DNA from: Stegostoma tigrinum
Lineage: Eukaryota
Assembly: GCF_030684315.1 (NCBI RefSeq)
Contig: NC_081369.1
Coordinates: 2,160,689-2,224,688, forward strand
Reading direction: 5' to 3'
Length of the DNA: 64,000 nucleotides
Each line of letters opens with the position of its first letter. Position 1 is the stretch's first letter. Positions 26,621 to 52,245 of this stretch are shown in pieces. The translations under genes and the position numbers were made by a program. The notes beneath the pieces are model-generated. The model did not search any database and was not told the DNA's origin. It was given only the letters and a program-made list of their open reading frames with translations.

Positions 26621-27282
26621 AATTTAGGATTTCATGTCCGCATGGGCAATTTTGACCGAATGGTCTGTTTCCATACTGTACAGCTCTATGACTCTCTGAT
26701 TGTAAATGTCTAAAGCTCACACAAAATAAATCAGTCAGAAACTGATGTTCCTGAATTCCAGCAATATTATATATTTCATTTCATACATATTAACATTGTG
26801 TGAGACAGCTTTCATTGTTTCTTCATTGGTTTTAAAGATTGCTGTGCAATACGAAGCAAAACTTTCAAAGGTTCAAGTTCATTGCACAACCCTAGTGGAT
26901 TTTAAGTCACAGCCAGCAGTCGGTTTTGGGTGATAGCTTGCAATCATTTGGTCTCATTTGTTTGATATGATGGCCAATGGTATTGATTTTACTGAAGTCC
27001 CGACATTACCTCACCACTTATATCAAGGGACAATTGATTCATCTTAGGGGTGTGATCTAAACCCTTAGATTTACTTCTACATCAGATTCTTTGCAATGAC
27101 GTTTTGCTCAAGTTGCAATTTGCTTTTCAGATGTAGTTGTAGGTGTAGTTCATTGATCTAAAAATAAAATCTATTATTGAAAGCATTTCCAGCTGCTTTC
27201 GTCACCATCAGTCAATTTCAGCCTTGCTTTCCGTTATAAATTCCAAAGCTTCAGAGGTATCTTGTCAATTCCATTTCTAAGC

Positions 27283-27328
27283 ATGTTGGTGCTACCCTGG
27301 CTATTGGCTATGGAGGTTATTTACACAG
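27283..27328 (+). CDS. Gene A exon 1, signal peptide MLVLPWLLAMEVIYT(D)
   Basis: ATG followed by 15 mostly hydrophobic codons, then ACAG|GTATTT donor in phase 1, matching the phase-1 V exon acceptor. The 46-nt size is typical of IgSF leader exons. Confidence 0.65.
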
Positions 27329-30300
27329 GTATTTTCATTTGTTATGTTGTTGAGAGAAAAAATGCAACAGATGTTGAGAATCTATTTTTAATTCCAATTT
27401 TGTGTTTAAAACATTTTTGGTTATTGTTGAATGTATTTTCACTCGGAATTGCTATGCAAGATCTGAGATTAAAATGTGAGGATAAATGTAAGATTATGTC
27501 ATGAAATGTAAGATTCTGATAAATGACACCAGCACAATGAGATGGTAAGAACACCAAAGTGTTTTTCAACAAAGGATCGCGCCAGCTCCTTGATCAAAAC
27601 TGTTTGCATACTGTGCTTATGTCTGAGGATATTGTGGAGGTTTTACAGGCAAAATTATTAATTGTCTTTCCAAAATGCTGCATTAGCCTCACAGTTTCAT
27701 TTGACTGATGTGAAAAGTGAGCATGTCATAGAGTCATGGATTCATACATCACAGAAACAGATCGGTCCAACCAGTCTTTGCTGAACATAATCCCAAATTA
27801 AGGTAATCACACCTGCTTGCTCCTGGCCCATATCCCTCCACAACTTCCTATCATGTACTTATACAAATGCCTTTTAAACATTGTCATTGTACCCACTTCC
27901 ACCACTTCCTCAACAAATTAATTCCTCATGCAAACCACTGTAAAAAATTTGTCCCTTATGTATTTTTTAAATCTCTCACTTCTCACCTTAGTGTCCCTGA
28001 GTCTTGAAATTCCTTATCTTAGGGAAATGACAGTTACCATAAACTCTATCTACACCCCTCATTATTTTGTAAACTTCTATAAGGTTGCCTCACAACTTCG
28101 TACCCTCCAGTGAAAAGAGTCACAGCCTCTCCAGAGTTATAGGAACTGCAGATGCTGGAGAATCTGAGATAACAGGGTGTTGAGCCTTTCCAGCCTTTCT
28201 TTATAACTCAAACTTTCCACACCAGCAACATCCTAGTAAATCTCTTCTGAACACTTTCCATCTTAATAATATCCTTCCTGTAACTGGGCAACCAGGATTG
28301 GACACAGCATTCAAGACGAGGCCTCACCAATGTCCTGTCAAACCTCAACATGACTACCCAACTCAAAGACCTGAAGGTAAGCATGCTAAAAGCCTTTTTA
28401 ATCACCCTGTGTCTGTGTGGTACCTGCTGTAACTATACTCTTACAAGACAATTGCGGATGTCATTTTTGAAGAATTTTTTTGTGATAAATCTTAGTAAGT
28501 GCACAGCAATATAGTTTGCATGAACATGTCAGTGGATGTAAGTTGTGCACAAAGAGGCACACAGTTGAAACATAAAAATCAGGGCTTCAGTCGCAACAAT
28601 AACCAGGCTGATAAATATAATGTTATATAGACGCAAAGATTGTGATGACATTGATAAGAATAACCACATGGGAGTGCATATCTAGGATGTTCAACTGTGC
28701 AAAGCTATGATCTAGTTCATCTGACCACGAGTGCACTAAGATTATTTCTAAATTAATTTGCGTGTTAGGATATATGAAGGAGCTAATTCAACAATAAAAC
28801 CGAATGCAAAGCAATTCAAAGGCTTACCTGGGTGGCAGCAGCAACATGCCATTTGATATGCTCTTTCTCAAATGTACTCAACCTGATCACCTCGGTATAT
28901 GCAATTTAAAATGCATCATTATGTTCTGGGCTTCAGAAATGTTCGGTTTTAAGAATTACACGATATCGTATTGCGTGGCAATTGCATAATGGCATGGCAG
29001 ATATGAACTGTTAAAATAAAGTTGTTTTAGACAGCATATTTAGTGCTGGTAGTATTCAATTGCACTCAATTAATGCTCAAAGTATGTATTTGATCATCAG
29101 GAAACATTCCATAATCAACAAGTCAATGACAATTGCTGCATGATTTTTGGCTTCAGCATCACTAATTGCCGTTGCATTTATTTGGTTGCTGTCGATACAG
29201 ATGCTCAGATAAGGGTATCCCAAACTCCCAAATATGCCAACATAATCGCGGGTGGAACCGTTCATCTCTATTGTGCATTGCCTCTTTCCAATGAACCTTC
29301 AGATGTGAGCGTCTATTGGTGGAAACTCGGAAACAATCATTTTCTGCAGTCAAATGAAGGCAACAGAACACAATTTCTTCGTTTGAGGAAGGGTGAGGCA
29401 ACTTTACAGCTGCTGAATGTCAACCATGATGATTCTGGACTTTATTACTGTGGTGTGAGACATTCTGATAATCAAATTGTAAATGGGACTGGATCACAGC
29501 TTGTTATCTATGGTAAGTGGAATGTCCGCATCAAACTATTTCACAAACACACAGAAAATATGAAACCAAGCACATGTCTTCACTGTAAGATTTTATGGTT
29601 GTTCATATTTGGGTCTTCCAAGAGTTCAATTCATACCTTTTAGAATTTAGTTAAAATTCTTATTCATTATTTAATTTAATCAAGACACAGTCTGCTTCAA
29701 TTTACTTTTGAAATGAACAGGAACTAAATACAATATTTGACAAAGTGTCACAAAGTCACATAATTGCTGGATTTAAATAAACATGGTGTATTTTAGAGAG
29801 TGCAAATTTTTCACTGCCCACTGTAAATCTGCCACTGGAATGAAAATATTGTGAAAAAATCTTTATGTGTACGGTAAGTGAAATTGAAACCTCTATCTTT
29901 CTTACAGTAGAACTTTTATTTTAACTGCAGAGTCCTCTGCAACATTCCTGGTTCCATTTTTTTCCCTTTGTATGACGATGATGCTGCTTGTATTGTCAAA
30001 CCTGAGCCTTTTTATACCCTGATGAATAATTATTTCAAAACTGTTTTTGAAATCAAGTTTAGTGCATTTCTATCAGTATTTGTAAGCCAAAAGTAAATCT
30101 AATTTTGATTAATGTGTTTGGGATACTATTTAAAACAGTAATTTAAAAAAATTGATCATGCTTATAATTTTGTTTCTATTAAACATTTATACCTGCTACA
30201 TACAAAGAATTTCAACCTATGTTTATCATTCAATTATTTTAATTGAATAGTTGAAGGTGACTTCAACATTTTCTACATACTAACATAGGAACAGAGGAGC

Positions 30301-33300: not shown

Positions 33301-36300
33301 TTACTAAGTTTACATCTCTTCTGTAACTTTTTTTTAACAGTTCCCCCACGCCAACTGCATATTGATTGCCGCAAGACTGAACAGAATGCATCGACTTATC
33401 TGGTTCTCATTTGTGAAAGTGTTGAATTTTATCCAGGGAATATAAGTATCAGGTGGTACAAGAATGGTGTGAATGTTGACGATGGAATAAACACAGTTAT
33501 AAAGCTAAGTGCAAAAGGTCTGTTTGAATGTTCCAGCACTTTTGAAGAAAAAGAACCTGTCAAAGATAAGACTTTCTACACCTGCAAATTATCTTATCTC
33601 ACAATTGAAATGACCGCCACCTACCAATTTACTTCAACCAGCAATGAAGGTACAAATATATTTTTGTAACAAATGGAAAAGAATATCTGATGAATACATA
33701 TATGTAGTTAAACAGGTTAAATCTCAGAACTAATGGAAGCAATAGGGTCACTCATTCAAATTTTACATTGAATTCCACGTCTTGATTTTGCTTCAATTCA
33801 TGCTCAGCAAATCACCAACACTGGTGAAGCCAAGAATTACTTTCTGACCTCAGTCTCCTTTGAAAGCCTTGCAGGATATACTGTGTGAAGTTTTTTAATT
33901 TAGAATTATGTGCATTACAGTGCTGTCAAGCAGAAATGGCCCATTTTTTCAAATTCACTATTGACGATGGAATATGGAGATGTGTCTAATGGTTGATGGA
34001 CAATTAGGAGTAAGATATCAAATCATTATTTTCTGATATTTTCCATGCTCTTTTAAAAACACAACAATAGCTTTTCCATCTTTAATTGAACAATAACGTG
34101 GGTTAATTCAACGTTGCAAATTTATTTTTTAACAGTTTTCTTTGTAAAGCTGGGCTGCACTGTACTTTTATTATCATCTGGAAGGATTGGTACTAATTGA
34201 GGGCTGGAATACGCCTCTTGCAATGCCATACTGAGAATAATATTACAACATGCCAGAAATAAGTGTCAGTAACAATTGTATTTTCAGCTCCAGAATGTAC
34301 CTAGTTGATTCACAAAATATGATGCGTGATCTTGAAGAAATTTCAAAACACAATTCATTGTTGAAATGATGTATCGTTGTAATGTTAAAATGCAAGCATG
34401 ACCTCTTTGAATACTGTTCAGTGCTAGTATCTCTTTTTAAATTTGCAAAATTAAAATTTTATTGTTAGCATACATGATGCATATTAATATCACATATTAA
34501 AGCAGCACTTGAAATGGGTAGAAAAATGATTAACAACATACTTGGCAGTCCTTCGAAGCATTGCAGCCCCAGAAAATTTGGATACGTTTTCAAAATAACT
34601 GCAGGAGAATTGAGAAGTGGGAATGGACAATACTGTTTTACAACATAAATCTTATTTTTGATATTCATTTTACAGGAGATGACAGCATATTTTGGTACAT
34701 AAAGGTGTACGGATCAGCAGGAGGTGGAATCTTGATTTTATTGTTGCTAATAGTAATGTGGAGGAGATATCTTTTGACATCATGTAAAGGTACAAAATAG
34801 TTCAGTTGATTTCAGTTCCAAATGCTCCTTCATGTTCATTCATTAGGGAAGAACACTTTGGAAGGCACTAAGGTACTTTGATTGAGGTAGCTGCTCTCTA
34901 AAATCAGAATATTAAATGGGAAAAGTAAGCACATCAGTTTGTCTTGGAACCACAGGTGCAGAGTAACAGAGAATTAACAAATTGTGTCTTTATCAAGATT
35001 TCATCTTGAATATAAAATAGCACTTGGGATATTTAACAAAGAGTTGGTAGCTCTTCTGGCCAATGGAAAAGAGTTATCACCCAACTGATACTGGTATATG
35101 GTTAATTTCTTTTTAATCTAGTTGCTGCAAGTGAGACCTTACTATCCCCAATGAATTTCTGCACTTTTTTTTGCTAGATGTTCAAATCATATGAATAGAC
35201 TTTTAGTCATGGGTGTGGGCATCACTGGCTAGGCCAGCATTTATTATCCATCCCTAATTGCCTAGGCTGTAGATCAGTGTTAACTACTTTGCTGTGGGCC
35301 TGGAGTCACATGTAGACTAGACTAGGTAAGGGATGGGAGATTTCCTTCCCTGAAGGACATTTGTGAACCATTGGGTTATTCTGACAATCAACACTGGTTT
35401 CACGATCATCATTAGCATCCTAAGTTCAGATATTTGTTGAATTCAAATTCCAACATCTGTCATGGCAGGGCTTGATCCCAGGCCCCCAGAATATTACCAA
35501 GGTCTCCAGATTAATAGTCTAGCAATAATACCATCAGGCCATCACTTCCCCAGTAAGCTGCGTGATTTTGAATCAACCACACTCCTGTAATTCTATATGT
35601 AGGCCAGGAAATGTAAGAAAGATAGCTTTTCTTCTACTTACTATGGATTTTCATGTAAACCAGTTACAGTCACAATCACTGGAAGTGATTTTCAATTGAA
35701 TTTAAATTGCATCACCTGTGGTGGTGGGATTTGAATCCATAGTCACAGGACGAGAGACCTCAGGATCATTAGTCCAGATACATTGCCAGTACCCGAGTAT
35801 CCCACTTCTTTGAGCAATGGAAACAACAACAATTAATTGATTGTATTATTGAACACAATGTTGTACAGTGCTTTAAGCTTGTCTGAAACTGTTGTGGACT
35901 CGTGGAGAGTCACTTCAAAATACAATTAATGTTTACTACTTAATTCCAAATATTACAGGGATAGAGAATTTCACAGACCAAGCACCACACCCTGAAGATT
36001 CGGTACGTCATTTTGTCAATCTGTTGTGCTCTGTTATGAAAAATTTAATAGTTGTGACGGTAAATATGACATGCAATGATAGATACATTTATACTTGAGG
36101 TTGAAGTATGCTGTTTCACTCCTTCGGGGAAACTCTTTGAAATATATAAACTAACTACTTACTTCAGACTTCAATGAGAAAATTCAAAACGCCATGTTTT
36201 TCGTACAGGACCTTACTGCAGTCTTTGTATGTCATTGCAACTGATCCCATCAAATAGGATGTATATACAAATTTTGATGCAGTCAGTCACAAAATTGTTG

Positions 36301-38195
36301 CTATTAATATTCAAACCTGCACATGTGTGGACCAAGACGAAGTATGTCAATTTACTCAGTTATTGATCAGCCATTATGTTAATGATGAAATTTTCCAAGA
36401 ACTCAACAATTCAAAGCCTTCAGTCAGGCATTTGCCTCAGCACTATATTGAAACAATTCTTAGGAAAGTGATCAATAACAACTTTTGTGATTGTCTCAAA
36501 GGTACAATATCTCTTCATATCCTTTTTGGTCTGTCTGCAGAGTTGGATGTGATTGTCATCTGGCTGTTTTACCTTTTACCCACCTAGGTTTATTTGCTTG
36601 ATATAATTGTAATGCAGCGAGTCATCTCAAGCAACATATCTGTATTCTCAAGCAGCATTACTTCTTGTATCACAACAGACTTTGTCCTTATTGTGCATTT
36701 CCACTCATGACCCATCCAGGCCAGCAAAACATAGAGCTTGCTCCGATCTGTGCACCAGGCTGGCCATTTTTCTTCATCACTGTCAACTCAATCATTGGGC
36801 ATAAATGATCAGATTGATTTTCAGATACTCAGTGCTGAATGCGAAACATATTCATACCATTAAATTGTGGAAATAAATAAACAATGCCTTCCTTCTCAAC
36901 TACAAATTCTGGACTTCTGCAACCAAATCCAGTTTTTTACTGGCAGCTGGATAAGACTGTCATTAAACTTGGTGCTATATTTGTGCCCATGGTGATGTCC
37001 CCAAAGAAATATTCATAGCTCATCTGCTGCTGAAGCTCTCATCCACATTTCTGTTACTTCAAGACTTTTGTCATAACCATGTTCAGACATCCAAAGTTTC
37101 ATGTTATGTGAGGTCATCCAATGCTCTGCCACCACTTGTCTTTTTTTTGATGTTTCATTGAGCCGTCACTCCTGCAAAAACTGCACCCTCCCCCCCCACT
37201 ACCCCACATCCACTCCAAATTAAGCAATAATGTGGTTTTAATTTTTCAATGCCATTCTTTATTCTTACTTAACTCTATGTCTTTGCCACTGTCCGCTTTG
37301 ATACCTTCTTCAGCCTCCAAAACGCTCTGTCTAGATTTTAATTGTTCCAACATTGATGGCTATTTGTCAGACACAAGGAGAATTATGCTCTGTCCTTGTT
37401 CTAAACTCTCTGCTTCTTCAATTTGTTTTGAATTCTATGATAGTCCTTGAACCAGTGTTTTGCACTTTGTTTTCTCACATTAGTCTCAGTATTGCCTTAT
37501 GCTCAGTCTCATATCTTGCTTCTGTGAATTGCCTTCACCAATTTTACTGTTAAAGTTACTATTTAAATGTATACTTTTGTTACCTCATGTAAGCCTCCTG
37601 CAGGTTGCAAGACAGCTGTACTTTGAATCCAAACATGAATCGTATGCAAAATGAAAATTATGATATATCCTGTCCAAATAATATTTGTTTAAATGTGTAT
37701 GTGTTTGGGAATCTTAATCTTAAAGTTTACGTTAAACTTTCCAACTCTGGTTCACCTATAGAGGTTAGAGATAACAAAGTGTAGAGCTGGATGAACACAG
37801 CAGACCAAGCAGTATCAGAGGAGCAGGAAAGCTGACATTTTGGGCCTGGACCCTTTCTGAACCCGAAACATCAGCCTTCCTGCTCTTCTGATGCTGCTTG
37901 GTCTGCCTTCTTCTTCCAACTCTACACCTTGTTATCTCAGATTCTCCAGCATCGGCAGTTCCTACTATCCTTACTGTGGAGGTTGTTCAGGTTGGTGCAC
38001 ATGCTTTTATAAACAATGTCAAAATAAATGAGTAAACCAAATAACACACATTATTTTATGTTTAATGCTTTGTGTTTAATGCAGAGGGGAGGAAATGAAC
38101 TGTCGCTTTATGCATCATTGGCTTTAACACCATCAATGAAAATGGTCAGAGCCCAATATCAAGAGGAGTTGACTGAGTATGCTCAGGTATGCTGA
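27283..38195 (+). CDS. Gene A: spliced IgSF type I membrane receptor (leader-VJ-C1-TM-cytoplasmic ITIM+ITSM), 311 aa; non-rearranging antigen-receptor-like / SIRP- or NITR-like inhibitory receptor
   Basis: Six GT-AG exons with compatible phases (1,1,1,1,0): 27283-27328, 29201-29512, 33341-33649, 34676-34789, 35959-36002, 38085-38195. Total 936 nt, open from ATG to TGA. Confidence 0.85.
27725..28410 (-). mobile_element. CR1-type LINE 3' fragment in gene A intron 1
   Basis: Minus-strand LVRPRLECCVQSW..VQKRFTRM peptide. Confidence 0.75.
29201..29512 (+). CDS. Gene A exon 2, V-set Ig domain with in-exon J-like strand
   Basis: DAQIRVSQTP...VHLYC...VYWWK...ATLQLLNVNHDDSGLYYCGV...NGTGSQLVIY. Acceptor TACAG at 29200, donor G|GTAAGT at 29513. 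Confidence 0.93.
33341..33649 (+). CDS. Gene A exon 3, C1-set Ig domain
   Basis: VPPRQL...LVLICESVEFYPGNISIRWYKNG...GLFECSS...YTCKLSY. C1 hallmarks L-x-C-x(4)-FYP and W-x-K-N-G. Polypyrimidine acceptor ttttttttaacag, donor G|GTACAA. Confidence 0.92.
34676..34789 (+). CDS. Gene A exon 4, transmembrane segment
   Basis: GDDSIFWYIKVYGSAGGGILILLLLIVMWRRYLLTSCK, a hydrophobic run followed by RR stop-transfer. Acceptor ttttacag, donor G|GTACAA, phase 1/1. Confidence 0.88.
35959..36002 (+). CDS. Gene A exon 5, short cytoplasmic exon (GIENFTDQAPHPEDS)
   Basis: ttacag acceptor and TCG|GTACGT donor. Converts phase 1 to phase 0, as needed to join the ITIM exon in frame. Confidence 0.7.
37767..37970. 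mobile_element. Miniature fold-back remnant of Penelope termini in the last intron of gene A
   Basis: gagataacaaagtgtagagctggatgaacacagc... followed by its imperfect reverse complement ...ctctacaccttgttatctc. Similar short terminal remnants lie near 6720, 9172, 9925, 10840, 14200 and 39700. Confidence 0.7.
38085..38195 (+). CDS. Gene A exon 6, terminal cytoplasmic exon with ITIM and ITSM
   Basis: tgtgtttaatgcag|AGG..., translating RGGNELSLYASLALTPSMKMVRAQYQEELTEYAQVC*. Confidence 0.85.
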   Translation, partial: RGGNELSLYASLALTPSMKMVRAQYQEELTEYAQVC

Positions 38196-38773
38196 GAAAA
38201 GAATGAAAATGCAAATAAAGGCAAGAGGGAAAATACATTATTTGTGTAATGTTACTTTGCTCATTCCACATGCTAGGTTTCTGAACCTTGACCTTTTTTT
38301 TGACTGATAAGCCAATGTGAAAGTGTGCAAATGCTAGTTACGTTTCCTAACACCTGTGTTATAGATAAAGCAAAAAAAAATTGATTGTCATCCGACATAT
38401 GCTGCACAAGAATTGTTTGGATCCAAGAAAACAGAGAAGCCTAAGTTAGAGGATAAAATATCCAACCATGGTCAGCCACCAGGGAAAACCCAAAGAGTAA
38501 CAGAAGAGACTGTCTGCAATGAAGAGGAAGCCACCTAATGTTTCCAGCCATACAAGGCATGCAGATTTCTCATGGCAAATACAATAGCATGGATTTTTGC
38601 TCTAATTATGCAGCCAGTGCTTTAAAAGACACAATGTTTTAATGAAAATGTGTTAACTGCTGTCGATTTGCTTTGTAATTTGTAACTCAACTGTCATATT
38701 CATAAAGTTGACCTGTGGCAAATGTCTGTATGAACACAATTCTTTCATGTTGCAACCAATTTTACGATCCTTG

Positions 38774-38779
38774 AATAAA
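38774..38779 (+). terminator. Candidate polyadenylation signal of gene A
   Basis: AATAAA about 580 nt after the stop, followed by a T/GT-rich tract. A more proximal AATAAA lies at 38214-38219. Confidence 0.45.
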
Positions 38780-41700
38780 CCAATATTGTCTTTATTTTAA
38801 TGAAAAAATGTTGTTTTACTTTGCTGATTTTTTTGCTGTCATATATTCATTGATCATTTCAATGCATCATGTGTTATGAAACAGTCTAAAGAATCCTTAA
38901 CAATCTGAATCTTTGTAATGATCTAGCTCGATAGACCATAATCCTTCAATAAATAGTGCATAGGGTCGCCCCAAGGATAAGAAAATAGGTGTCAGCATTC
39001 CAGGGTTGGTTTGAAAGGCCAAAGAAAAATTACATACACTTGAACAGGCAAACATAAGCAAACATGACTAAATATGTATTACTGCACATGTAGCTAATGA
39101 ACTTAAAACATAAACATTACAGGTCAAAATATTCAGAATGATAATGGGGTAATTATATGCGAACAAACAAAATATGGTAAAGCATCCCTCAGACTGAACG
39201 CTCAAATGGCGTTGCATCTGACACTTATTGAGATAATATCTATGTATCATCAAACTCGACCGAACACCAATCTACTTTGCCAAGGGCTTCCAATTGTTCA
39301 CTTGCAACATCAACGACTGGGATGTCCTAAATGCATCTTTGACTCAGACTGCCTTAACCACTTCTTGGATTTGCACAGTTTACTCTCCACTCCTAGGATC
39401 GAATTCTCCAGATTTCCTGAAATTGCTTGCATGTATTTAATCACTGGAACAATCTCAGTTTTTGTTAAATGAATCGCTGAACTATCGCTGAATTTGTCTA
39501 ATTTACATTTTTTTAAAGCGAGCTGCATGATGCAAATTATGCTCTGGAATCCCTTATGTTCACCTGCAGCTGCAATAAACAATGACCGGCTCCCGGACTT
39601 GGTTTCCGCACTAATATTATTTCCATGGAACAGAGCTAATGTTTCTTCCTGACCTCTAACTGCCCGATGTCTGCTAACAACAGCAGTTGTGCTAACAAGT
39701 TGTAGAGCTGGATGAACTTAGTAGGCCAAGTAGCATCAGAGGAGCAGGAAAGCTGACGTTTCGGGCCTCGACCCTTCTTCAGAAATATTATCTCAGATTC
39801 TCCAAGCATCTGCAATTCCTACTATCTCTGAAGCAGTTGCGCTTCCTAGTGCCACCGTTCTGCTTCGTCACTTTCCAGATCCAAACATCATTTATAAGCA
39901 GCAACAAAAATAAGGTGAAACAAGAGACTCTTAATCTCGCTATATCCCTGATAAATGGCCCTCTCTGAGCTATCCTTAACTAGTCTTTTTGTTGAACAAT
40001 AACTTATTTGCATTTCCTTCAATATGCTGATATATTTTTCTCTTTGCTTTTCAGTGTTCACCAAAGACTTTGATTAATTTTGCATTAGCTCCCAAAACAA
40101 ACTATCCTAAACTGCGTTTACAGCAAATAACATAGACACCATATCATTGACTTAGCAACATCTATTATTTCTTATTCTCGCATTTTCAATCGTTATCCGC
40201 TTAAAGCAACTCCAACATTTTGTGTTTTTCTCTTCCATGTACTTCAATTGCACAGTTTACATTCACTGCAGCTAAACTTAACTGTGATCATTTAAAAAGT
40301 CATAAAATATTTGAACTAGGTATTTGCAACAGATGCAAATTAGTATGCATTATGTTCATTCTGTTGATCATGTCGAAATCAATTGTTCTCATGGAGGGGC
40401 AGAATTAAACTAACTTCTTTGTTTTCAGTATTGCAGAATACATTTGAGTTCCAAATCTCGATCAGTTCAATTGATTATATACTTCCAAATTCCAGACTTA
40501 AGATTACTGGACAGGAACAGCGGGTAATAGCTGCGTATTTTGAACATTATGCTTCGATAATGTAGAATGAACACGGCTTTATTAAAGGAAAATTATGATT
40601 TACAGAGTTTCTGAATGTACTTTAAAATGGAGTATATTATAGTCAGATTTGTTGACGGTACAATCGTTAAGTGGAAAGCAAAATGTGAGTGCTGCATTAA
40701 AAGAAACGTGCAAAGGCGTCTCGCTGGGTTCTGTGACTGTGCAGAAGTTCTGTAGATGGAATGCTGTGCAGGAAAATGCATAGTTGTCCACTTCGGCGAC
40801 TAGGACAGAAAATCAGAAAAGAATTTGACTAAAGAATGTGGAAAGAGGCAAGAGGGATCTAGCTGTTCTCTGACATGTATTTGAAAAACATTATTGGCCA
40901 GGTACACAATAATGAACAAAACAGTATTAGAAAGGACATGAATACTAAGGTGTAGTGCAGGAGGATGGAGCGTAGAAATGTTTTCGCATTGATGAGTTTG
41001 CACTTAGCTAATAAAGATTGCTTTGCCACAAAGTTTTAATCTTGCACAAAAAGGAATGCACTTGCGCTCGTATTGTTCAAAGACCACGTACTTGTTTGAA
41101 TTTCAGAACACTGTTCTCATATGTGGCAAAATTCAGCAGATTGGAACAGACAGGCAGTATGCTATGGAAATTCAACAGGACTGCCGTAATATGTGGGGTG
41201 AAAACAGAATAAAAGTTTCAAGTCTGGTATGATTCTTCTTCAGAATTCAGGGTTCATACTAGACTAAAATCATCCTTCTGAAGAAGGGCTATTGAACTCT
41301 CGGCATGTACTGTTCTTTCTCCACAGGTGCCGCTGTGAAAATCACCAGCAATTTTTGTTTTTGTTTCAGATTTCCAACATCACGCAATTTTTTTTGATTT
41401 ATATTAGGACGTGGAAAAATTGTTTCAAAATAAAGTGCCTCACATGTATCTTCGCAAACAATTGTTGTACTTTGGAATGTTGTTTCTTAGAGAGGTAAAT
41501 AAATATATTTAATGCAATTCAGGTACATCTTGAAGAAACAAGGGGATCAGAAGTTGGAGAGGGGCATGGTATGCATGGTAAAAGTATATAAAAGTAGAGT
41601 AAAGCCAAAATGAGGGTATCCCGGAACTTATTGAATTGAAGCCATGGCTCGAGGAGCTAAACTGTTCAATTGTTTCTGAACTTGCTGTATTCTAATCATC

Positions 41701-42340: not shown

Positions 42341-42380
42341 ATGACTGCCCTCGCTTTGCTTAAGTGTGTGGTCATCCTAG
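42341..42380 (+). CDS. Gene B exon 1, signal peptide MTALALLKCVVIL(A)
   Basis: caaaATGA start context, hydrophobic codons, CTAG|GTTTGT phase-1 donor, 124-nt intron. The signal peptide continues AFGSASS in the V exon. Confidence 0.8.
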
Positions 42381-45300
42381 GTTTGTTTCGCAGTTTCTAT
42401 TTTAAACCTTTGTGCTCACTCCTGGTTGACTACATCCCTGTCAAATGCAAGTCAGGTCCAGCATTTTATTAATGGATTTTACCTTTCTGTTCTTTCTTTG
42501 AAAGCTTTTGGCTCCGCCAGCTCCCAGGTGTTACAAAGGCCCCAACGCATGGCTGTGAATTTGGGTTCAAATATAAGTATCTTTTGCGAGTTCAGTCTTC
42601 TGTCAGATGACTCAGAAGCGAATATTTTCTGGTGGAGACTTGGCGACAGTGTACTTGAGCATCCTAACTCTGACTCGAGAAGACAATATTTTAAGAGAAA
42701 AGGACAAGGCACATTCAAGATCTTTGACATCGGTCTTCAAGATGCTGGTGTTTATTACTGTGGAGTCCAACAACAAAGTGATATTGTTATTAACGGGACT
42801 GGGACAACACTTGTTGTCCATGGTGAGTTTCATTGTAGCTGTTGCAATTGATGAGAATTCTTCCAAGTTCATTGAATTACTTGAAATGTTTGACATCAGG
42901 TTAATGTGATTTGTGTCTGACGTAAGTATGTTCGTGAGCCTTTCGAATCTCGTCTCTTGCCCATTTATTTTCAATATTCCTTATAAGGTATAAGGGATAT
43001 GTTTTCTTCACAGAATTGATAATGACCAGTCATTAATCAGTGAACCTATTTAAACCTATTTGTATTACTGCAACTCTGACTAGGTTGTTAAGATTACTAA
43101 ATCATTGGAGACTAGTGTAAAATGTTCAATTTGAGTGATGTTGAACCCATTACCATCATTCATATATACACATATCTAATTTCATATGAATAAGTTCTCT
43201 ATTCTGTTCTAATTTCTATACAATTTGGCAATTCTAAAGGTTAATAGTTTGATATTTTGAAACTTTATTGTAGAGTCGCAACAAAATACTTGAACTCTTA
43301 AAAATATTGAAGCCAAAGATGTTTGTCATAAAATGTATGCTTACAGATATAACTGCCCATTTTATATACTATTGCCCTAATTATGCAACTTCCAGAAAAT
43401 GGTTACAGTACTTTGCAATACAAAAGTGAGTTGGGAGAAGAATAATTGTTCAAACACGTAAATAGATGTTTCATTAATCAGTTTATATAGTGAATACATT
43501 CACAGTTCACAGTGGCACGGTAGTGGAGCTTGTGGCAAATTTTCTTGGAATAATTATGAACAGAATTCAGGCTGATTTTCCATAATGCCATAAAATCAAA
43601 TATCTGACAAGCCTTCATTGAATAAACAAATAGCTGTTTATGGTCATTTATAGTTCTAGCTTTTTTTTAATATGTTGACCTTCCCCCAAAATTTCAAATT
43701 GAGCAAGGAAACTTCCATATCTTATCAGGCCCACTATTCCAGAAATATTCCAACATTTAACTGATGGACTTGGGTTGCTCTTTTACTTCAGCTGTTGGGA
43801 TGACTACTGTGTTATACCAGTTCATTTGAGTTGGGAAAACAACCAATTCATGTTTATCCTTTTGGTGGTAAATTATTCCACAGCATATTTGGAAAGGAAG
43901 TATAATATTAAAACTGGAAAAAAAAACTGTGGATGCTGTAAAACAGGAACAAAAACAGAAGTTGCTGGTAAGAGCTCAGCAAGTTTGGCAGCATCTGTGA
44001 AGAAAAAATCAGATGTAATGTTTTCGGTCCTTCTGAGGAGGGGTAACTTCTGTTTTAGTTCTTCAAGTATATTGGCTGACATTCCTCTCTTAATCTGTAG
44101 GACATTGGTGAGACCACATCTGAAACAGTAAACAGATGAATGCATCTCATTGTTATTTTATTTGACACTTGAATCATGAATATCTGTTTTAATTCTATGA
44201 AATACTATGAAATCTGTTCTATGAATCAAAATGCCATAATGGCATTGATATATGGGGCCATATGAAACAGAAGAAAAAGTAAAATTTGTTTTTTTCGAGG
44301 CTGCTCCACAATTCAATATGATCATGGCAGATATATTTGTATTTTGAATAGCGCGTTCTCACCCACTCCCGATGATATTTGATTCCAATGTTTGATAAGA
44401 ATCTACTTATCTCTGTTGAAAAAAACTCCTGATCAAACGCCACCACCTTTAGAGACAAACCTCAAAGACCTAACAGAGAAGGAAATAATCTCCTCAGGTT
44501 GGCCGTAAAGAGTGAGACCTAATTTTAGAACAGCATCCTCTCGATCTGGCTGATCCAGAAGACGAAGCATCGTTTCCATGTCCATCTTGTCAAGACCATT
44601 CAGGATCAAATAAATTTCAATCATGTCATCCTTCACTCTTCTAAACTCCAGTGGAAACAATTCCAGCTTGTCAAGTCTATTCTCTTTATTTCTCTTATTG
44701 AATATTATCATTAACTTGTCGACATATTTGCAGAATGGTGATGATGACCACTCTTTGTTCTTTATTCCTCTTCTGACTTAGCTACTAATGCTTTGCTCCT
44801 TGGGACATTCCTTGTTGGTTCTACCTACCTTTCTGCAGCTACCTCTTTATGTTTGAATGTTATTGTTCCACCATAAGGCCAAATAGCCTGCGACAACACT
44901 TTAGGGATTCTATGAGCCTTGTGATAGAATCCTAGCCTTAGCCATAACCAATAATCATTTATACTGCCCTATCTCTCCTTTTCCTTTCCTGACTGTATTT
45001 CTTAATTTTTGTTGCAGTCATTGTGGACAACAACAATACGGCCCATTACTTCAGCCGCATGCTGTTACACTGGTGGCTCAATTACAGCCCCAGCATGGAT
45101 GCCATGAATCTGAATTAGTTTTTAGTCATTTTCAGTCCCAAATTGGAAACTGCAGTAAAGATTATGATCACTATGACTTTTGGATGAATTCAGTGCAAAG
45201 CCCTTACTAGTGAACCCTGTCTTTCAGCACCTCCTGTACATAGCATTCTTTCAGATCCTTTGATGCTGAATGAAACTGCCCTTGCACCCCCTTTCAGCAG

Positions 45301-48300
45301 TAAATATGGATGGTAAATAAAGGATACTCATCTATTTTTCAGCTTCAGTTCAAAATGAGTGCCCTGATCACAGTGCAAGATTATTGTGGTCACTCCTAAT
45401 GACTGACCACAGGAGTCTCAAGTATAGAATTTTGATTGTTTATTCAAACATATACAGGCAGAGTGTCCACTCAAATGAAAACTCTACTGTCCACAAGAAA
45501 TTCATGAATTCGTAAATTTTAGTCAAGTCCACAAATTCTACCCTTGTCAAAACACAGAACGCAATAAACAGATCTTTCTACTTCTCACCTATAATGTTTT
45601 CTTCAATACTGATCAGTTGATTCTATTCCCTACTTTTGCCTTCTAATCAATTAATCCTTCATGGGTCCCAAAGCTTTCAGGAATATCCCTGCTGTTCTCA
45701 GCCATACTGGTGTTCAAGGCTTATCTGGAAAAGTATTTGTTCAAATGTACTGTGAACATAGAGATCAGTATTTCACATTTTAAGTCCAGATAACTCTCTG
45801 AAATTGGCTATACATGATATGCCTTTGTCAAAACCATACTGACTCTTCCCAGTTAGCTTCTGATTTTCAAAATGAACAATATTTCAAAATATTATCTCTT
45901 TAATGATCGATTCTACAGTTTTACACATCATAGTCACAATGTAAATTCCCTTTAGTTTATTGTTTTCTTCCTCCTTCCTTCATGGAATAGAATGGTTGTG
46001 TCTATTATTTTACAATCTGATGAAACCTTTCTTGAATCTATAGCGTTTTAGAAAATTAGCCCCGATACATCAATCAGTTCATTTACAAGTTCTTTTAGGA
46101 TGAACTTTATCTGGACTCCAGACAGGCCAGATTTGATTAATACAACTTCTTGCATGATTGTAATTTGCTGAATTCATCAAGCCCTTCCATTTCCTGAATT
46201 ATAGCTATTACTGAAATGTATTTTGCACTCTGTGCAGTGAACACAAAGCAAAATATCTGTTCTTGTCAATGCAATTTCATCACTATCTACAATCAACACT
46301 TCATTTTCATTCTCTAGAGAACCAAGATTGACTTTGCTGACTCTTTTCCTTGTTAAATACACTTAGATGCCCTTGCTCTCCATTGTTGCATTGCTATATA
46401 GCTTCCTCTCAGACTCTAATTTCTCTTGGAGATCCTCTGGCGTTCTTTATATGCTGACTAATAATTTAGCCTGGTGCTCATCGTTGGGCAATTGTGTGTG
46501 TTTTGCTTACATTTGATGTTTTCCCTCACTTCTTTAAATAACCATGGATGATGGGTCTTCTCTTTTAGGATCTTTCTTTGTCATGGGAAAATACTTATTC
46601 TGAGTTCTCAGAAACATCTACTTTAATGCTTGTTAATCTGTCTACAGTGATATATCCTCTAGCCTAATATGCCAGTAAACTTCTGCTCACCCAAGATAAT
46701 TCACCATATTGGAGACGTTATCATATTTAACATTGTGAGGAACTGCTCGATGAATGTTGTTGTTTCATAAGTGCTCTTTTAATTACTTGGTTTCCACCAT
46801 CTTAAATTTAAAAATTTAAAATGAAGTATAAGATGTAGTCATTGCATTCTTCTTCTTTTCTGTATATAATAATCAAAAATTTCAACATTGAACAATTTTA
46901 CTTAAACCCCATTATAGCTCCACCGTCTCCTCCAACTATACTATCCAAAATGTCAGATGAGAATTCAAGCATCTATCTGCACCTCATATGTGAAGCAGTT
47001 GATTTTTACCCAGAGGCCATTATCTTCAATTGGTACAAGAATGCTAGAAAGATTACAAATGGAATTAAAACTACACAATACTTGAACTCAGAGGGACTCT
47101 ATCAAGCATCCAATATTCTGCAAGAGTTACAACCAATCCAGGAAGGAAGTTCTTATATTTGTTTGATATTGCATAGCACCCTCCAGGCTCCAAAGTTATC
47201 CACTTACACGGTGTCTAGTTCTAATCAAGGTAAGATGTAACTTTATTTTTGTAAAAATCATTCGGCTGGCTTTTGCTGAGAAATATCACTGTGGCTGGGA
47301 ATTGTCATTTATTGGGAAATTAGGTACTGATGTCTGGGGTCTGCTTGTGGGTATGTAAGCAAGAAATGTAAAAATCATCTCCTCCATATGCTATTGGATA
47401 ACTCACAGTGTTTCATCAGACATGAAATTGCTGTGCATCCTGTGTTAGATACGTGTGACAGTATTTGAAGTATTGCTGTTTAATGAGACTTTCTAAGCAG
47501 AATAGCTACTGACGCTTGAGAGAATAATTTCATGCAAAGAGAAAAATACTCATGAAGAGTTTTCAGTCAACACTGCTAAGTGATCAAGCTGTAGAGAAAG
47601 GAGAAAAAAAATAGGGTTTGATCAACAAGCTGTGGTCTGACAAATTATGTTGATAACATTTCAACATTGCCTTGCATGTTGAGTGGTAAGCTTGATCAGT
47701 AATAAGATCAGCACAAATGAGTATTTTGTTGCATGTAAATGAACACTTTGAAAACTCATGCAAACATGTTTAAAATGTACAAAAATGTACATAATTAATT
47801 CAGTAAGATGATATAAGTTAACTTTGAATCAGTGGAATAGACTCCATTAGATTGACACATCCATATCACAAAGGTAGATGGTCAACTCTGTTGGGTCCCA
47901 AACATTAGTATCAAGACATCACCACAAGATTTGAAACTGCAGTTTGCTAAATCCAACTATCTTCAGTTACTTCATTAATGATCTTCACTTCTTCCTAATG
48001 TCAGAAATGGAGATACTTGCTGGTGATTGGACAAAGTTGGCATCATTGAGGCTCCTGAGATACTGAAGCAGTCCACTTCCATATGCAGGAACCCTCTACG
48101 ACATTCAAGTTTGAGCTTATAAGTGGCAGTTAACTCCACAGAAATGCCGGAAAGTGACCAATTTCAAAAACAGCAACTCTGGTTAGCTCCCCTTGAAGTT
48201 CTAAGATTTTATTAATGATTAGTCCACCACTTTCAACATTCTGGGGCTTACCACTGTCTTTGAACTGCACTAGACCAGGCACATAAGTATTGCGGCCACA

Positions 48301-51083
48301 AGAACAAGTAAGAATATAGATATCTGTGGCATGTAACTCACCCTATATCTTCCAAATCCCTACAATGCTGTTCCAAGTCAGAGCATTGTTCTGTGCTGGC
48401 ACAATGCCGACAATTTTTAACCAACTGGACAATATTGATGACAAAGCCAATGACGTTTCCTTGGCACACAATCCATCACATTCAATATTGATTTCCTTTA
48501 CTACTAACTCACACCACTGTTGTGGGTGATATCCGCAAGGTGCATTCCTGAATTCTGCAAAGCTTCCTATGTCAGATCATACTACTGTGCAATCCACAAT
48601 GAAGAATAAGAAAGATAGGACTCCCATTAAATCACCAGCATCTCCAATCTAGTCACACACTATCCTTGGGACTTGGAATACTATCATTGTTTCAAGCATT
48701 CAAGCAAAGAAGTTGCTATTTTAGTCTGTAGCTTAAATGGAGGAATGGTAAATCTTTCCAGTTGTATTTTCGTCTAGATTTTCATGATCACTATTATATG
48801 AAGGGAATGTTTTACATTAGCATGTAAATACAATCTTGCCATTTAGGCCATAATTTACAACTGCTTGTTCTGGGATAAGAAGCCCAGTTGTCTCTCATGT
48901 GACAGTTGCATTGGAATTGCTTGGTCAAGCAAGGAGTCCATGAATATTTCATGCCACTGTATTGATTGGTATAAAGTTATTGGAGAAACTCATAACTGCA
49001 TAGTGATAAAGCAATGACATTTTCTAATTTATATATGCAATCTTGTGGACTGAGCATGACATACACCCGCTAATGTGAGAAAACAAAATGAGCATTATTT
49101 GACCCACACAAGAAATACAGAGGAATTCCCATTGATCCTGTGGGATTAGAATGAAAACCAAACCACAGAAAGGTGTTTTGAAGGATGTGTTCTTTTCAGT
49201 TGCTCAGTGATGCCAGCAAAAATTGACAACAAACTGTGAACATGATCCTTTGCCAGTTCATTTTAAATCTACCCAGACGCAGGCATCTCCAGACCTATTC
49301 TCGAGCACAGTTTTGAAATACTCGAGTGAAAACAGTTTCAGGCACTTTTTTTTCACTCTTCTCTAGTTGAGTTTGAAATCTTTGGAGGTGCATAACTGTT
49401 TACATATTTCTAAAAGCAGCTTACCTTTCAATTTTAATTGGAACAATGTTTGAATAACAAACATGCACTTAATGAAAAAGAGTTTAATTTCATGAAGCGA
49501 AAAATTAACTTCAGCAACTTTTCAATGTTTCAATCATAATTACAGACATCTCATCAGCCAATGCTTGATAAAATTTCCCAGAATTCAGAGTTAAATTTTA
49601 AATAGGTTTAGGTGCAACATGGTGCTAATATGACCAAATTCTGCTCAGAACCATTCTTTACTCATTTCACATGATAACAAACAGAATGCATTTGAAAACA
49701 TTTCTAAATGCTGGCATTTCACCAATTTTCAAGCTTTAGGACATAGAACAGTTTAGCATAGGAATGGGCCCTTTGGCCCATGATGTTGTGCCAAACTTGA
49801 GCCCCTGGATGGCTTTATACAGCAATGCTCTTCAGGGTCCTGCCATTAACTGCATACTTATCCTTAACATTTGATCTCCCGAAGTGCAGCACGTCATCAT
49901 TACCCAGATTAAACTTCATCCGCCATTTCTCCACCCATATCTGCAAATGATCTATATCCTGCTATATCCTTCGACACTATCCAAAACTCTACCAATCTAT
50001 GTATCATCTGCAAACTTACTAACTCATCAAAATCATTTATGTAAATAGTAAACAGCAGAGGTCCCATTATGGATCCCTATGGAACACCTCTAGCCAGAGA
50101 AACACACTTCCATCATTACCCTCTGCCTTCCATGGGCAAGCCAATTCTGAATCCAAGCAGCAAAGCAACAGTGAATCCCATGCATCTTAATCTTCTAGAT
50201 GAGCCTACCATGAGGGGCTTTGTAGGAAGCCTTCCTAAAATTCATGTGGACAGCTTCCACCTCTTACCTTCATTACCACCTTTGACATATTCTTGAAAAA
50301 TTCAGTTGAATTAGTAAGTCATATCCTGCCCCTCATAAAACCACACTGTCTGTCCCTAATTAGGTCATGTTTTTACAAATGCATGTCAGTCCTATCCCTA
50401 ACAAGCCTCACCAATAGCTTTCCGACCACTGATGTGAGACTCATCGGTCTATAGTTTTCTCGATTGACCCTATTTTCCTTCTTGAACAAAGGAACAGTTC
50501 ACTACTCGTCAGTCGTGTGGGATCTCTCCCATAGCTAATGAGATGCAAGGCATTGTTAGCATTTTTACTATTGCATATTAAATTTTAAATCACTTGGGTA
50601 TGTAACTTCAAAACAAAACTTATTAAAAAAACCAACACCATTGTATTGTAATAGTAATGCTGTTAAATTATTTGTAAAATTCATACAGTACAAAGTCTGG
50701 AATAGAATTTGTAGCATTATGTTAGTTATACTATAGAATTGAATCAGTAACTTGTATCATAATAATTTATAACTGGCCATTCATTTATTGATAAATTTAT
50801 TTTTTGAGATAATCTAGAAAATTCTGCAGTTTAATTTTGTGCTATTTACATCTTGCAGTTCCCAAAATTGGCTTATTAATCCAATTTATATTGGTCATTT
50901 TTCTAATCCTGATTTTGGCCTTCATCCTCATGGATTACTGTAAAGCAATGCATTTCAGAAGGTAAGAATCTACTGAATGAAGTGAAAAATTGTGCCCTTG
51001 TGGAACAACTGAGAAAAATTGAAAGTAACTTGTATATTTCTTGCAGCATGCATAACTTAAACAAACCGTACAGGGACCAATAA
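42341..51083 (+). CDS. Gene B: spliced IgSF type I membrane receptor (leader-VJ-C1-TM-short tail), 269 aa; paralog of gene A
   Basis: Exons 42341-42380, 42505-42822, 46918-47229, 50859-50961, 51047-51083. Phases 1,1,1,2 are compatible and 810 nt are open from ATG to TAA. The terminal exon is the least certain. Confidence 0.83.
42505..42822 (+). CDS. Gene B exon 2, V-set Ig domain with in-exon J-like strand
   Basis: SQVLQRP...ISIFC...IFWWR...FKIFDIGLQDAGVYYCGV...INGTGTTLVVH. Acceptor ttctttctttgaaag, donor G|GTGAGT. Confidence 0.93.
44220..44700 (-). mobile_element. Old CR1-type LINE fragment in gene B intron 2
   Basis: RLDKLELFPLEFRRVKDDMIEIY peptide. Confidence 0.6.
46918..47229 (+). CDS. 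Gene B exon 3, C1-set Ig domain
   Basis: APPSPP...LHLICEAVDFYPEAIIFNWYKN...GLYQASN...YICLILHSTL. Shows the FYP, WYKN and Y-x-C-x-x-x-H C1 motifs. Donor G|GTAAGA. Confidence 0.93.
49740..50550 (-). mobile_element. CR1-type LINE fragment in gene B intron 3
   Basis: Reverse-orientation CR1 tail (acatagaacag...) and RT-like sequence. Confidence 0.65.
50859..50961 (+). CDS. Gene B exon 4, transmembrane segment
   Basis: tcttgcag| VPKIGLLIQFILVIFLILILAFILMDYCKAMHFR, donor AG|GTAAGA (phase 2). Confidence 0.85.
51047..51083 (+). CDS. Gene B exon 5, short terminal tail (S)MHNLNKPYRDQ*
   Basis: 85-nt intron with acceptor atttcttgcag. Reading from phase 2 reaches TAA at 51081-51083, which overlaps AATAAA at 51079-51084. 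Confidence 0.55.
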
Positions 51084-51556
51084 ACCTGAACTATTTATTT
51101 ACCCAGTACTTAACACAGTTGATATTATTCAGAAATTGTTGTGGAATTATGGAATCACATGTAACTTTGAGTGCTCTGTCAGTGAAGCATTATGTTATGG
51201 GTTTCGAAGGATGGATTGCTTTGATATGGTCAGTATTCTGCCTTTTGTGAAGAGCCTGAGAAGCATGTTGTTTGACACAACCAATACTTTTTGGACAGAT
51301 GGCCTAATATCTGGCGTCAGTCTAGTGCTGAAACTGACACACCATATTTCACATTTGTGTGATAAGCAGGGCATCCTTTATTATTGGCCAGCTACATCAT
51401 TTTTTAATATGCAAGATATGTTATTTAAAGTAGACTGAACATTCTTTTCAGGACCAATAGTGGTGACTTGAGTTCCATTCTTCCATAAAATTGACTGAAA
51501 TTGATACTTAGTACAATTTACATTGAAAGATTGTATAAAAGCACTTTAGCTGAAAA

Positions 51557-52245
51557 GAAACATAGAACATAGAACAGTACAGCACAGAACAGGCCCTTCA
51601 GCCCACAATGTTGTGCCGACCATTGATCCTCATGTATGTACCCTCAAATTTCTGTGACCATATACATGTCCAGCAGTCTCTTAAATGACCCCAATGACCT
51701 TGCTTCCACAACTGCTGCTGGCAACGCATTCCATGCTCTCACAACTCTGCGTAAAGAACCTGCCTCTGACATCCCCTCTATACTTTCCACCAACCAGCTT
51801 AAAACTATGACCCCTCGTGCTAGCCATTTCTGCCCTGGGAAATAGTCTCTGGCTATCAACTCTATCTATGCCTCTCATTATCTTGTATACCTCAATTAGG
51901 TCCCCTCTCCTCCTCCTTTTCTCCAATGAAAAGAGACCGAGCTCAGTCAACCTCTCTTCATAAGATAAGCCCTCCAGTCCAGGCAGCATCCTGGTAAACT
52001 TCCTCTGAACCCTCTCCAAAGCATCCACATCTTTCCTATAATAGGGCGCCCAGAACTGGACGCAGTATTCCAAGTGCGGTCTAACCAAAGTTTTATAGAG
52101 CTGCAACAAGATCTCACGACTCTTAAACTCAATCCCCCTGTTAATGAAAGCCAAATCACCATATGCTTTCTTAACAACCCTATCCACTTGGTTGGCCATT
52201 TTAAGGGATCTATGTATCTGCACACCAAGATCCCTCTGTTCCTCC
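51557..52245 (-). mobile_element. Young CR1-type LINE 3' end
   Basis: ORF 51681-52256 (-) QRDLGVQ..LVRPHLEYCVQFW..RGDLIEVYKIM and a (CATAGAA)n tail. Confidence 0.9.

What the first reader, a model, noticed from the sequence alone, without database searches (positions are those of the whole stretch)
38085..38195. Gene A tail has a PD-1/CD33-type ITIM + ITSM tandem
Seen: SLYASL (S/I/V/L-x-Y-x-x-L) and TEYAQV (T-x-Y-x-x-V), with tyrosines 23 residues apart at the C-terminus. Established: a proximal ITIM plus distal ITSM recruits SHP-1/SHP-2 in PD-1, Siglecs and NITRs, and ITSMs bind SAP-family adaptors in SLAM receptors. Inference: a TCR-shaped ectodomain wired to checkpoint-type inhibitory signalling.
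Basis: partly seen in the sequence, partly recalled or inferred. Interest (0 to 1): 0.7.

Follow-up and report, generated by a model that had tools for sequence, protein, structure and literature searches.

The report
Cartilaginous-fish inhibitory receptor with relocated motifs

Summary
Both motifs are present in frame, with tyrosines 23 apart. They lie in a V(J)-C1-TM gene that aligns without internal gaps to a sharpnose sevengill shark protein. The claim that they end the protein is probably wrong. The V of TEYAQV is the first codon of a strong splice donor, and a missed 57-codon exon at 38365-38538 matches the homologue's end (25 of 57 identical; next best 13). Splicing gives TEYAQI, still an ITSM, so the pair survives in either form. 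The 23-residue pair is a family trait (12 of 13 homologue pairs). In this gene the pair sits one exon upstream of its usual place, and the motifs of the last exon are broken. The family is chondrichthyan, clustered, and includes short-tailed members with a transmembrane arginine. The closest working model is SIRP-alpha or BTLA (Ala at pY+1, SHP-1-capable), not PD-1, CD33 or a TCR. SAP binding has no support. No RNA data were available, and gene A is the most eroded intact member tested, so decay is a live rival.

The parts
27283..27328 (+). Gene A leader exon (predicted; first ATG in the homologous stretch, phase-1 GT donor)
   Evidence: tblastn of P0008 residues 1-25 to 27259-27333, E 0.003; open joined frame
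29201..29512 (+). Gene A V exon with the J-like motif in the same exon (non-rearranging VJ); its acceptor lies about 12 nt downstream of the place implied by the homologue
   Evidence: Pfam V-set E 8.4e-11; 53% to P0008; no RSS found; 3-residue gap against P0008
33341..33649 (+). Gene A C1-set exon
   Evidence: Pfam C1-set E 6.8e-09; AG/GT, phase 1-1
34676..34789 (+). Gene A transmembrane exon, inhibitory-member type, no charged residue in the core
   Evidence: Family inhibitory-TM profile E 1.4e-08
35959..36002 (+). Gene A first cytoplasmic exon (44 nt, phase 1-0)
   Evidence: AG/GT; gap-free alignment to P0008
38085..38186 (+). Gene A second cytoplasmic exon (tail module I): ITIM SLYASL 38103-38120; ITSM tyrosine with TEYAQ ending at the donor
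   Evidence: 64.5% over 31 aa to P0008; tail profile E 1.7e-06
38187..38364 (+). Predicted 178-nt GT-AG intron; if retained it adds Val-Cys-stop (38187-38195), with AATAAA at 38214
   Evidence: Donor rank 36 of 3321 and poly(A) scan; AATAAA background 0.92 per kb
38365..38538 (+).
   Evidence: 25 of 57 ungapped identity to the last 57 aa of P0008, next best 13, same stop position; tail profile E 7.7e-06
42341..50966 (+). Neighbouring paralogue gene B: leader from about 42341, VJ 42505-42822, C1 46918-47229, TM 50859 to stop, short tail without tyrosine motifs
   Evidence: Pfam; model; short-tail TM profile E 0.0094; leader match

Best explanation
The region is the second-to-last coding exon of gene A, a germline-joined VJ-C1-TM receptor of a clustered cartilaginous-fish family, and it carries an ITIM and an ITSM 23 residues apart that likely act as a two-site dock for SHP-1/SHP-2, making the receptor a predicted SIRP-alpha-like immune brake. 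Shown: exon chain, motifs, spacing, homology, family make-up. Inferred: the main mRNA splices 38186 to 38365 (about 75%), giving TEYAQI plus 56 residues; a retained-intron form would end TEYAQVC (about 25%), and both keep the pair. Inferred mechanism: ligand binding clusters the receptor, a Src-family kinase phosphorylates both tyrosines, and the tandem SH2 domains bind in parallel (N-SH2 on the ITIM, C-SH2 on the ITSM) as shown for PD-1 and BTLA. Ala at pY+1 predicts SHP-1 recruitment. Inferred history: the working pair moved from the last exon, where relatives keep it, to this exon by point changes, while the last exon's motifs decayed. Ligand and cell type are unknown; a self cell-surface protein on leukocyte contacts is the working guess.
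For: The seven-exon GT-AG model is open and aligns to P0008 with gaps only in the leader. Consensus motifs as defined in PMC8631942 are met in both forms. The same 23-residue spacing occurs in 12 of 13 homologue pairs. The terminal exon keeps frame, length and stop; 57 stop-free codons occur in 2.5% of shuffles and in 222 of 7433 intron windows. In relatives the residue after the module-I tyrosine motif is Thr in 19 of 27 matches, so that site is not normally an ITSM; gene A has Ile. pY+1 Ala is the SHP-1 determinant (PMC8631942). Family tails resemble the SIRP-alpha motifs ITYADL, LTYADL and TEYASI (PMC5413580). The best Atlas clusters for P0008 are SHPS-1-like and SIRP-alpha, both 0.96. Short-tailed TM-arginine members exist: 11 of 119 rows, or 6 of 70 after merging near-identical rows.
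Against: No transcript or binding evidence. Gene A keeps only 30 of 39 conserved V+C1 columns; 66 of the 67 other rows keep 31-39, and the one lower row lacks a C1 domain. The losses include a His kept in 66 of 67. Its branch is 0.50 against 0.18 for P0008. The V acceptor is displaced and the leader is short. Ser at pY-2 is the weaker ITIM variant (recalled). The motif-relocation history rests on one close orthologue-like protein (SH-aLRT 82, unstarred) plus the family consensus.
Confidence: 0.68

Rival explanations
1. Gene A is a decaying or relaxed copy. The ITIM and ITSM consensus matches in this exon are drift products of an already tyrosine-rich module, and the receptor signals little or not at all.
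For: Lowest retention of conserved columns among rows with both domains (30 of 39), long branch, shifted V acceptor and all three last-exon motifs broken.
Against: All seven exons are open with GT-AG sites and there are no internal indels against P0008 over about 350 residues. Both disulfide cysteines and the core tryptophan of each domain are kept. The tyrosines of this exon are kept while those of the next exon are lost.
Confidence: 0.17
2. One reading: the protein ends at TEYAQVC by intron retention and intronic polyadenylation, the downstream exon has been dropped (explaining its motif loss), and the tail is a terminal PD-1/CD33-like tandem.
For: Open read-through to TGA at 38193 and AATAAA at 38214; motif decay in the downstream exon; three Callorhinchus database models show the same Val followed by non-homologous sequence, though these may be prediction errors.
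Against: Strong donor (rank 36 of 3321), intact acceptor, and a downstream exon with preserved frame, length and stop. Val is automatic on read-through of a phase-0 donor. AATAAA occurs 0.92 times per kb. This rival changes the tail length, not the predicted inhibitory mechanism; its odds are counted inside the best explanation.
Confidence: 0.25
3. The second motif works as a true SLAM-type switch, binding SAP/EAT-2 and turning the receptor activating in cells that express the adaptor.
For: TxYxxV/I consensus is met; ITSMs in some receptors bind SH2D1A/SH2D1B (PMC8631942 introduction).
Against: The ITSM is a single one behind an ITIM, the layout of PD-1, BTLA and SIRP-alpha that recruits SHP phosphatases. 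It has Glu at pY-1 like those receptors, whereas SLAM-family SAP sites usually have a hydrophobic residue there (recalled). The family has separate short-tail TM-arginine members for activation.
Confidence: 0.08
4. Gene A is a B7-H6-like ligand (V-C1-TM), and the tail motifs serve trafficking or reverse signalling rather than inhibition.
For: B7-H6 is among the tied top fold matches of the P0008 model (Z 15.9, rmsd 5.0, 193 aligned); several members are labelled NCR3LG1-like or CD276 homologue by databases.
Against: The fold hits are tied with unrelated two-domain Ig proteins. A J-like GxG motif, repeated ITIM/ITSM modules at fixed spacing and short-tail TM-arginine sisters are receptor traits.
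Confidence: 0.07

Closest known systems
SIRP family (SIRP-alpha/SHPS-1, SIRP-beta1, SIRP-gamma)
   Same: Germline VJ-type domain followed by C1; tail built of ITIM + TEY-type motif pairs; paired inhibitory, TM-basic and short-tail members. SIRP-alpha (2wng) matches the family profile over V+C1 in one stretch, E 8e-32; top Atlas clusters.
   Different: One C1 instead of two; TM Arg near the outer end rather than Lys (SIRP-beta1 Lys recalled); many more paralogues. Ig light chains and UrIg2 score as well or better on the ectodomain, so orthology is not shown. CD47 binding untested.
PRARP / VJC1 genes (Fu et al. 2019; Ohta et al. 2019)
   Same: Non-rearranging VJ-C1 IgSF genes (named in PMC10751288 and PMC11599192); TM and ITIM/ITSM tails are recalled from the Fu abstract.
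   Different: Described (recalled) as few-copy genes in bony vertebrates. Neither paper was held and no PRARP sequence was available, so kinship is untested; 60 of 61 profile hits were chondrichthyan.
BTLA and PD-1
   Same: Proximal ITIM + distal ITSM at similar spacing (25 residues in both, from the Tyr numbers in PMC8631942; 23 here). The ITIM shares YASL with BTLA's IVYASL.
   Different: PD-1 has a single V domain and a stalk (PMC11599192) and Gly at pY+1; chondrichthyan PD-1 candidates are separate genes said to lack conserved ITIM motifs.
UrIg / UrIg2 (shark non-rearranging antibodies)
   Same: Single-exon VJ plus C1 in elasmobranchs; the UrIg2 structure matches the profile at E 2.8e-36.
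   Different: Three or nine C1 domains, liver/gill expression, MHC or AgRC linkage; ITIM and ITSM are not mentioned in PMC12227049.
TCR chains / Ig light chains
   Same: Leader-VJ-C1 domain order.
   Different: No RSS or split V-J, no CD3-pairing TM charges, a long signalling tail, and an N-glycosylation sequon where the J-motif Phe/Trp normally packs the V-V interface (position recalled).

Membership tests
ITIM/ITSM inhibitory immunoreceptors | Cytoplasmic S/I/V/L-x-Y-x-x-I/V/L motif | tested here: met
   SLYASL behind the TM exon; consensus from PMC8631942
ITIM/ITSM inhibitory immunoreceptors | Distal T-x-Y-x-x-V/I motif at tandem-SH2 spacing | tested here: met
   TEYAQI if spliced, TEYAQV if not; 23 residues
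ITIM/ITSM inhibitory immunoreceptors | Phosphorylation-dependent SHP-1/SHP-2 binding and inhibition | not testable with these tools
   Needs biochemistry; pY+1 Ala predicts SHP-1 capacity
ITIM/ITSM inhibitory immunoreceptors | Expression on leukocytes | not testable with these tools
   No RNA run was offered for this sequence
PD-1 (PDCD1) | Single IgV domain plus stalk | tested here: not met
   V plus C1-set; PD-1 definition in PMC11599192
CD33-related Siglecs | Sialic-acid V-set domain followed by C2-set domains (recalled definition) | tested here: not met
   Second domain is C1-set; the V domain has the ordinary B-F cysteine pair and a J motif
T-cell receptor chains | V and J split by RSS and joined by RAG | tested here: not met
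   J motif in the V exon; 2 heptamers per V-C1 interval, none with a nonamer within 3 mismatches at 11-13 or 22-24 nt
T-cell receptor chains | Basic TM residues for CD3 assembly and a short tail (recalled definition) | tested here: not met
   Uncharged TM core and a tail of about 115 residues
SIRP | VJ-C1-C1 ectodomain | tested here: not met
   One C1 exon only between V and TM
SIRP | Tail with repeated ITIM + TEY-type pairs | tested here: met
   Family tails have two modules; gene A keeps one working pair; SIRP-alpha motifs from PMC5413580
SIRP | Paired members with a basic TM residue and short tail | tested here: met
   11 of 119 rows by pattern, isoforms unmerged; 6 of 70 merged. The residue is Arg; adaptor binding untested
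SIRP | Common descent (phylogeny, synteny) with tetrapod SIRP | tested here: inconclusive
   25% identity and hhalign probability 99.0 to unnamed P0099, which I read as SIRP-like from recall; Ig light chains match equally; no genome held for synteny
SIRP | CD47 binding | not testable with these tools
   No shark CD47 at hand; needs a binding assay
PRARP / VJC1 | Non-rearranging VJ-C1-TM with ITIM or ITSM (recalled) | tested here: met
PRARP / VJC1 | Orthology by sequence and synteny | not testable with these tools
   Source papers not held; no named PRARP sequence among the hits
NITR | V domain followed by an I/C2-type domain (recalled definition) | tested here: not met
   Second domain is C1-set

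The most novel reading that the evidence does not exclude
Gene A belongs to an unnamed, single-locus, paired receptor complex that is older than the shark-chimaera split and is the cartilaginous-fish counterpart (sister of SIRP, or an expanded PRARP) of KIR/LILR-type self-sensing systems, built from the same VJ-C1 unit as antigen receptors. Gene A itself records a hand-over of the SHP-docking ITIM-ITSM pair from one tail exon to its upstream repeat, arranged so that spliced (Ile) and intron-retaining (Val) forms both keep the ITSM.
Probability: 0.35. Interest if true: 0.7.

Novelty: new variant of a known kind. Interest (0 to 1): 0.45.

Why it matters
The motif pair itself is ordinary for inhibitory receptors. 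What matters is the family. The innate inhibitory receptors of cartilaginous fish are poorly charted, and germline VJ-C1 genes are central to models of how antigen receptors arose (PMC12227049, PMC10751288). This clustered family, with inhibitory and TM-arginine members, carries conflicting database labels and was not described in the papers I could search. It offers direct tests: which ligand, which cells, SIRP or PRARP kinship. The case is also a general warning: any exon ending T-x-Y-x-x at a phase-0 donor yields a false terminal ITSM when read through.

Tried and rejected
Expression: no RNA holder listed, which is no evidence either way. Two contig sets of unrecorded type were laid; one contig in each spans 37944-39749 with no other letters or gaps, so the last exon's A-run is not an obvious assembly error, but these runs may be the assembly's own source. 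Own genome not held, so no copy count or synteny. A search with the V exon against longer proteins found nothing. Extra phase-0 exons between 36003 and 38084: 10 mechanical candidates, rejected because the alignment to P0008 has no gap there. No second TM exon for gene A and no inhibitory TM or tail exon for gene B inside the window (next-best E 0.36 or worse). Fold search of the P0008 model did not separate families, and SIRP was not among the 50 rows shown. The ectodomain-only Atlas search did not name SIRP. Pfam on 86 frames (85 of 96 frames of at least 85 codons, plus the last exon) found only 2 RVT_1 and 1 weak GIY-YIG hits, so no synteny marker. Searches had one-base boundary errors, and one search had them for gene B; searches corrected them. 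Literature: ten searches found no description of this family; six member accessions gave 0 papers. Supplements of PMC12227049 had no hit. In those of PMC10751288 all 10 'substrate 1-like' rows are reedfish. Fu 2019 and Ohta 2019 were not held and may cover the family. No complex prediction was run.

Full report
Observation. The window is repeat-rich DNA with two tandem immunoglobulin-superfamily genes on the + strand. In gene A, SLYASL (38103-38120) and TEYAQV (38172-38189) lie in one frame behind an AG acceptor at 38084, with tyrosines 23 residues apart and a stop at 38193. Such motifs are cheap by chance: 251 ITIM-pattern hits, 17 ITSM-pattern hits and 2 tandems in six frames, against 0.285 tandems per shuffled window in 200 shuffles. 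What makes this one real is its place in an open leader-V-C1-TM-tail exon chain (Pfam V-set E 8.4e-11, C1-set E 6.8e-09). That chain aligns to P0008 (XP_067853494.1, Heptranchias perlo) with gaps only in the leader region. The alignment also supports the 36002-38085 splice.

The gene model needs correcting. The Val of TEYAQV is encoded by GTA directly after CAG. This donor ranks 36 of 3321 GT sites by a simple matrix with recalled frequencies, better than three of the gene's four other scored internal donors (ranks 16, 147, 357, 357). Tails of relatives hit a further stretch at 38368-38535 (E 4e-08). From an AG at 38364 it reads as 57 codons and TAA. It is 25 of 57 identical, without gaps, to the last 57 residues of P0008; the next best place in six frames scores 13. 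It stops at the same position, and only 2.5% of shuffles and 222 of 7433 intron windows are open that long. A tail profile built from relatives finds exactly these two exons (E 1.7e-06 and 7.7e-06; next 2.3). Splicing gives Ile at pY+3, which still fits TxYxxV/I (PMC8631942). A retained-intron form is possible, with AATAAA 19 nt after its stop, but that hexamer occurs 0.92 times per kb here. With no RNA data, I put the spliced form at about 75%.

The family. A profile of 30 relatives returned 61 proteins, 60 of them from sharks, rays and chimaeras; the other was a weak flatfish MUC18 hit. That search needs shared words, so distant relatives can be missed. Rows with a contig length share one length per assembly (16 Heterodontus rows, 8 Heptranchias rows), apart from short unplaced Chiloscyllium pieces, which points to one cluster. 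Database names conflict: SHPS-1-like, SIRP-beta-like, tapasin-related, NCR3LG1-like, CD276, Ig lambda-like. Among 70 rows merged at 85% identity (including genes A and B and one outgroup), 27 had ITIM tails, 6 a TM arginine with a short tail, 10 short tails, 15 longer tails without a strict ITIM and 11 no TM. These classes come from patterns on predicted models. Tails are built of repeated modules, and 12 of 13 ITIM-ITSM(-like) pairs in relatives are spaced at exactly 23 (one at 20; one of the 12 may itself be a read-through model).

What is particular to gene A. In relatives the canonical pair usually sits in the second module, and the first module's distal tyrosine is followed by Thr (19 of 27 matches, isoforms included), so it is not an ITSM. 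In gene A the second module's motifs are all broken against P0008: the ITIM has lost both hydrophobic anchors, and two tyrosines have become His and Cys. The first module has gained Ser at pY-2, Glu at pY-1 and Ile at pY+3. I read this as a hand-over of the docking pair, inferred from one close relative (SH-aLRT 82) and the consensus. Against a healthy gene: it keeps 30 of 39 conserved ectodomain columns, where 66 of 67 other rows keep 31-39; its branch is long (0.50 against 0.18); and its V acceptor is displaced.

Mechanism. PD-1 and BTLA bind SHP-1/SHP-2 bivalently through ITIM and ITSM. A medium non-polar residue at ITIM pY+1 (Ala in BTLA IVYASL, SIRP-alpha and Siglec-9) allows SHP-1 recruitment, while PD-1's Gly prevents it (PMC8631942; abstract, introduction and passages). 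Gene A has Ala, an uncharged TM core and a tail whose counterpart in P0008 is modelled at low confidence, consistent with disorder. The best reading is an inhibitory receptor able to recruit SHP-1 and SHP-2. SAP binding rests on the consensus alone. The domain order is TCR-like, but no RSS was found, there are no CD3-pairing charges, and a near-invariant Asn-Gly-Thr sequon opens the J motif, which by recalled Ig geometry would hinder V-V pairing.

Comparison. It works most like SIRP-alpha: similar tail motifs (PMC5413580 passages), top Atlas clusters (0.96), a one-stretch V+C1 match to 2wng (E 8e-32), and paired members. It is not shown to be a SIRP: it has one C1, and Ig light chains and UrIg2 match the ectodomain as well or better. 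PRARP/VJC1 has the same layout by recall and is named in PMC10751288 and PMC11599192 (passages), but its source papers were not held. PMC12227049 (first of eight parts, passages and supplement search) has no mention of ITIM, ITSM, SIRP or VJC1 in its main text. Ten library searches found no description of the family; most subscription papers are outside that library. Earlier agents of this scan reported what appears to be the same family in other genomes; those are unchecked notes, not support.

Verdict. The motifs are real and the inhibitory reading is probably right, but the terminal exon and the PD-1/TCR framing are probably wrong. It is a variant of a known kind of receptor within an apparently unnamed chondrichthyan paired family. 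Interest 0.45.

Noticed in passing
window 42341-50966 (+): Gene B has a short-tail TM exon of the type that carries Arg in relatives but has Gln there, while its three nearest relatives (P0042, P0214, P0167; 53-60% identity in V+C1) have inhibitory-type TM and tails: a possible exon swap, decoy form, or a second TM exon beyond the window.
   Followed up: partly
window 29180-29200 (+): No AG at the V-exon acceptor position implied by P0008; the usable in-frame AG is about 12 nt downstream and shortens the signal peptide.
   Followed up: partly
window 33341-33649 (+): Gene A's C1 has an extra cysteine, and His changed to Tyr at a column kept in 66 of 67 relatives.
   Followed up: partly
proteins P0149, P0206, P0207 (Callorhinchus models): Database models show the same Val after the module-I motif followed by non-homologous sequence, probably the same donor read-through producing an apparent ITSM.
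   Followed up: partly
proteins P0012 versus P0154/P0211: Close ray relatives differ by Gly versus Arg at one TM position, together with short versus ITIM-bearing tails, suggesting a repeated origin of activating forms (model truncation not excluded).
   Followed up: no
PMC10751288 supplement, reedfish chr12 table: Nine SHPS-1-like genes are listed on reedfish chromosome 12; whether they are bony-fish relatives of this family was not tested.
   Followed up: no
proteins P0020, P0040, P0095, P0096, P0132, P0150: Multi-V receptors with ITIM-like tails that also match the family profile; the two looked up (P0096, P0150) are from squamates and carry CEACAM-like and titin-like labels.
   Followed up: no
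window 24800-26700, 12100-13100, 51550-52300, 59300-59700: Retroelement remnants (GIY-YIG and RVT_1 hits); frames at 24813-25974 and 25333-26710 suggest an inverted pair of Penelope-like copies.
   Followed up: no
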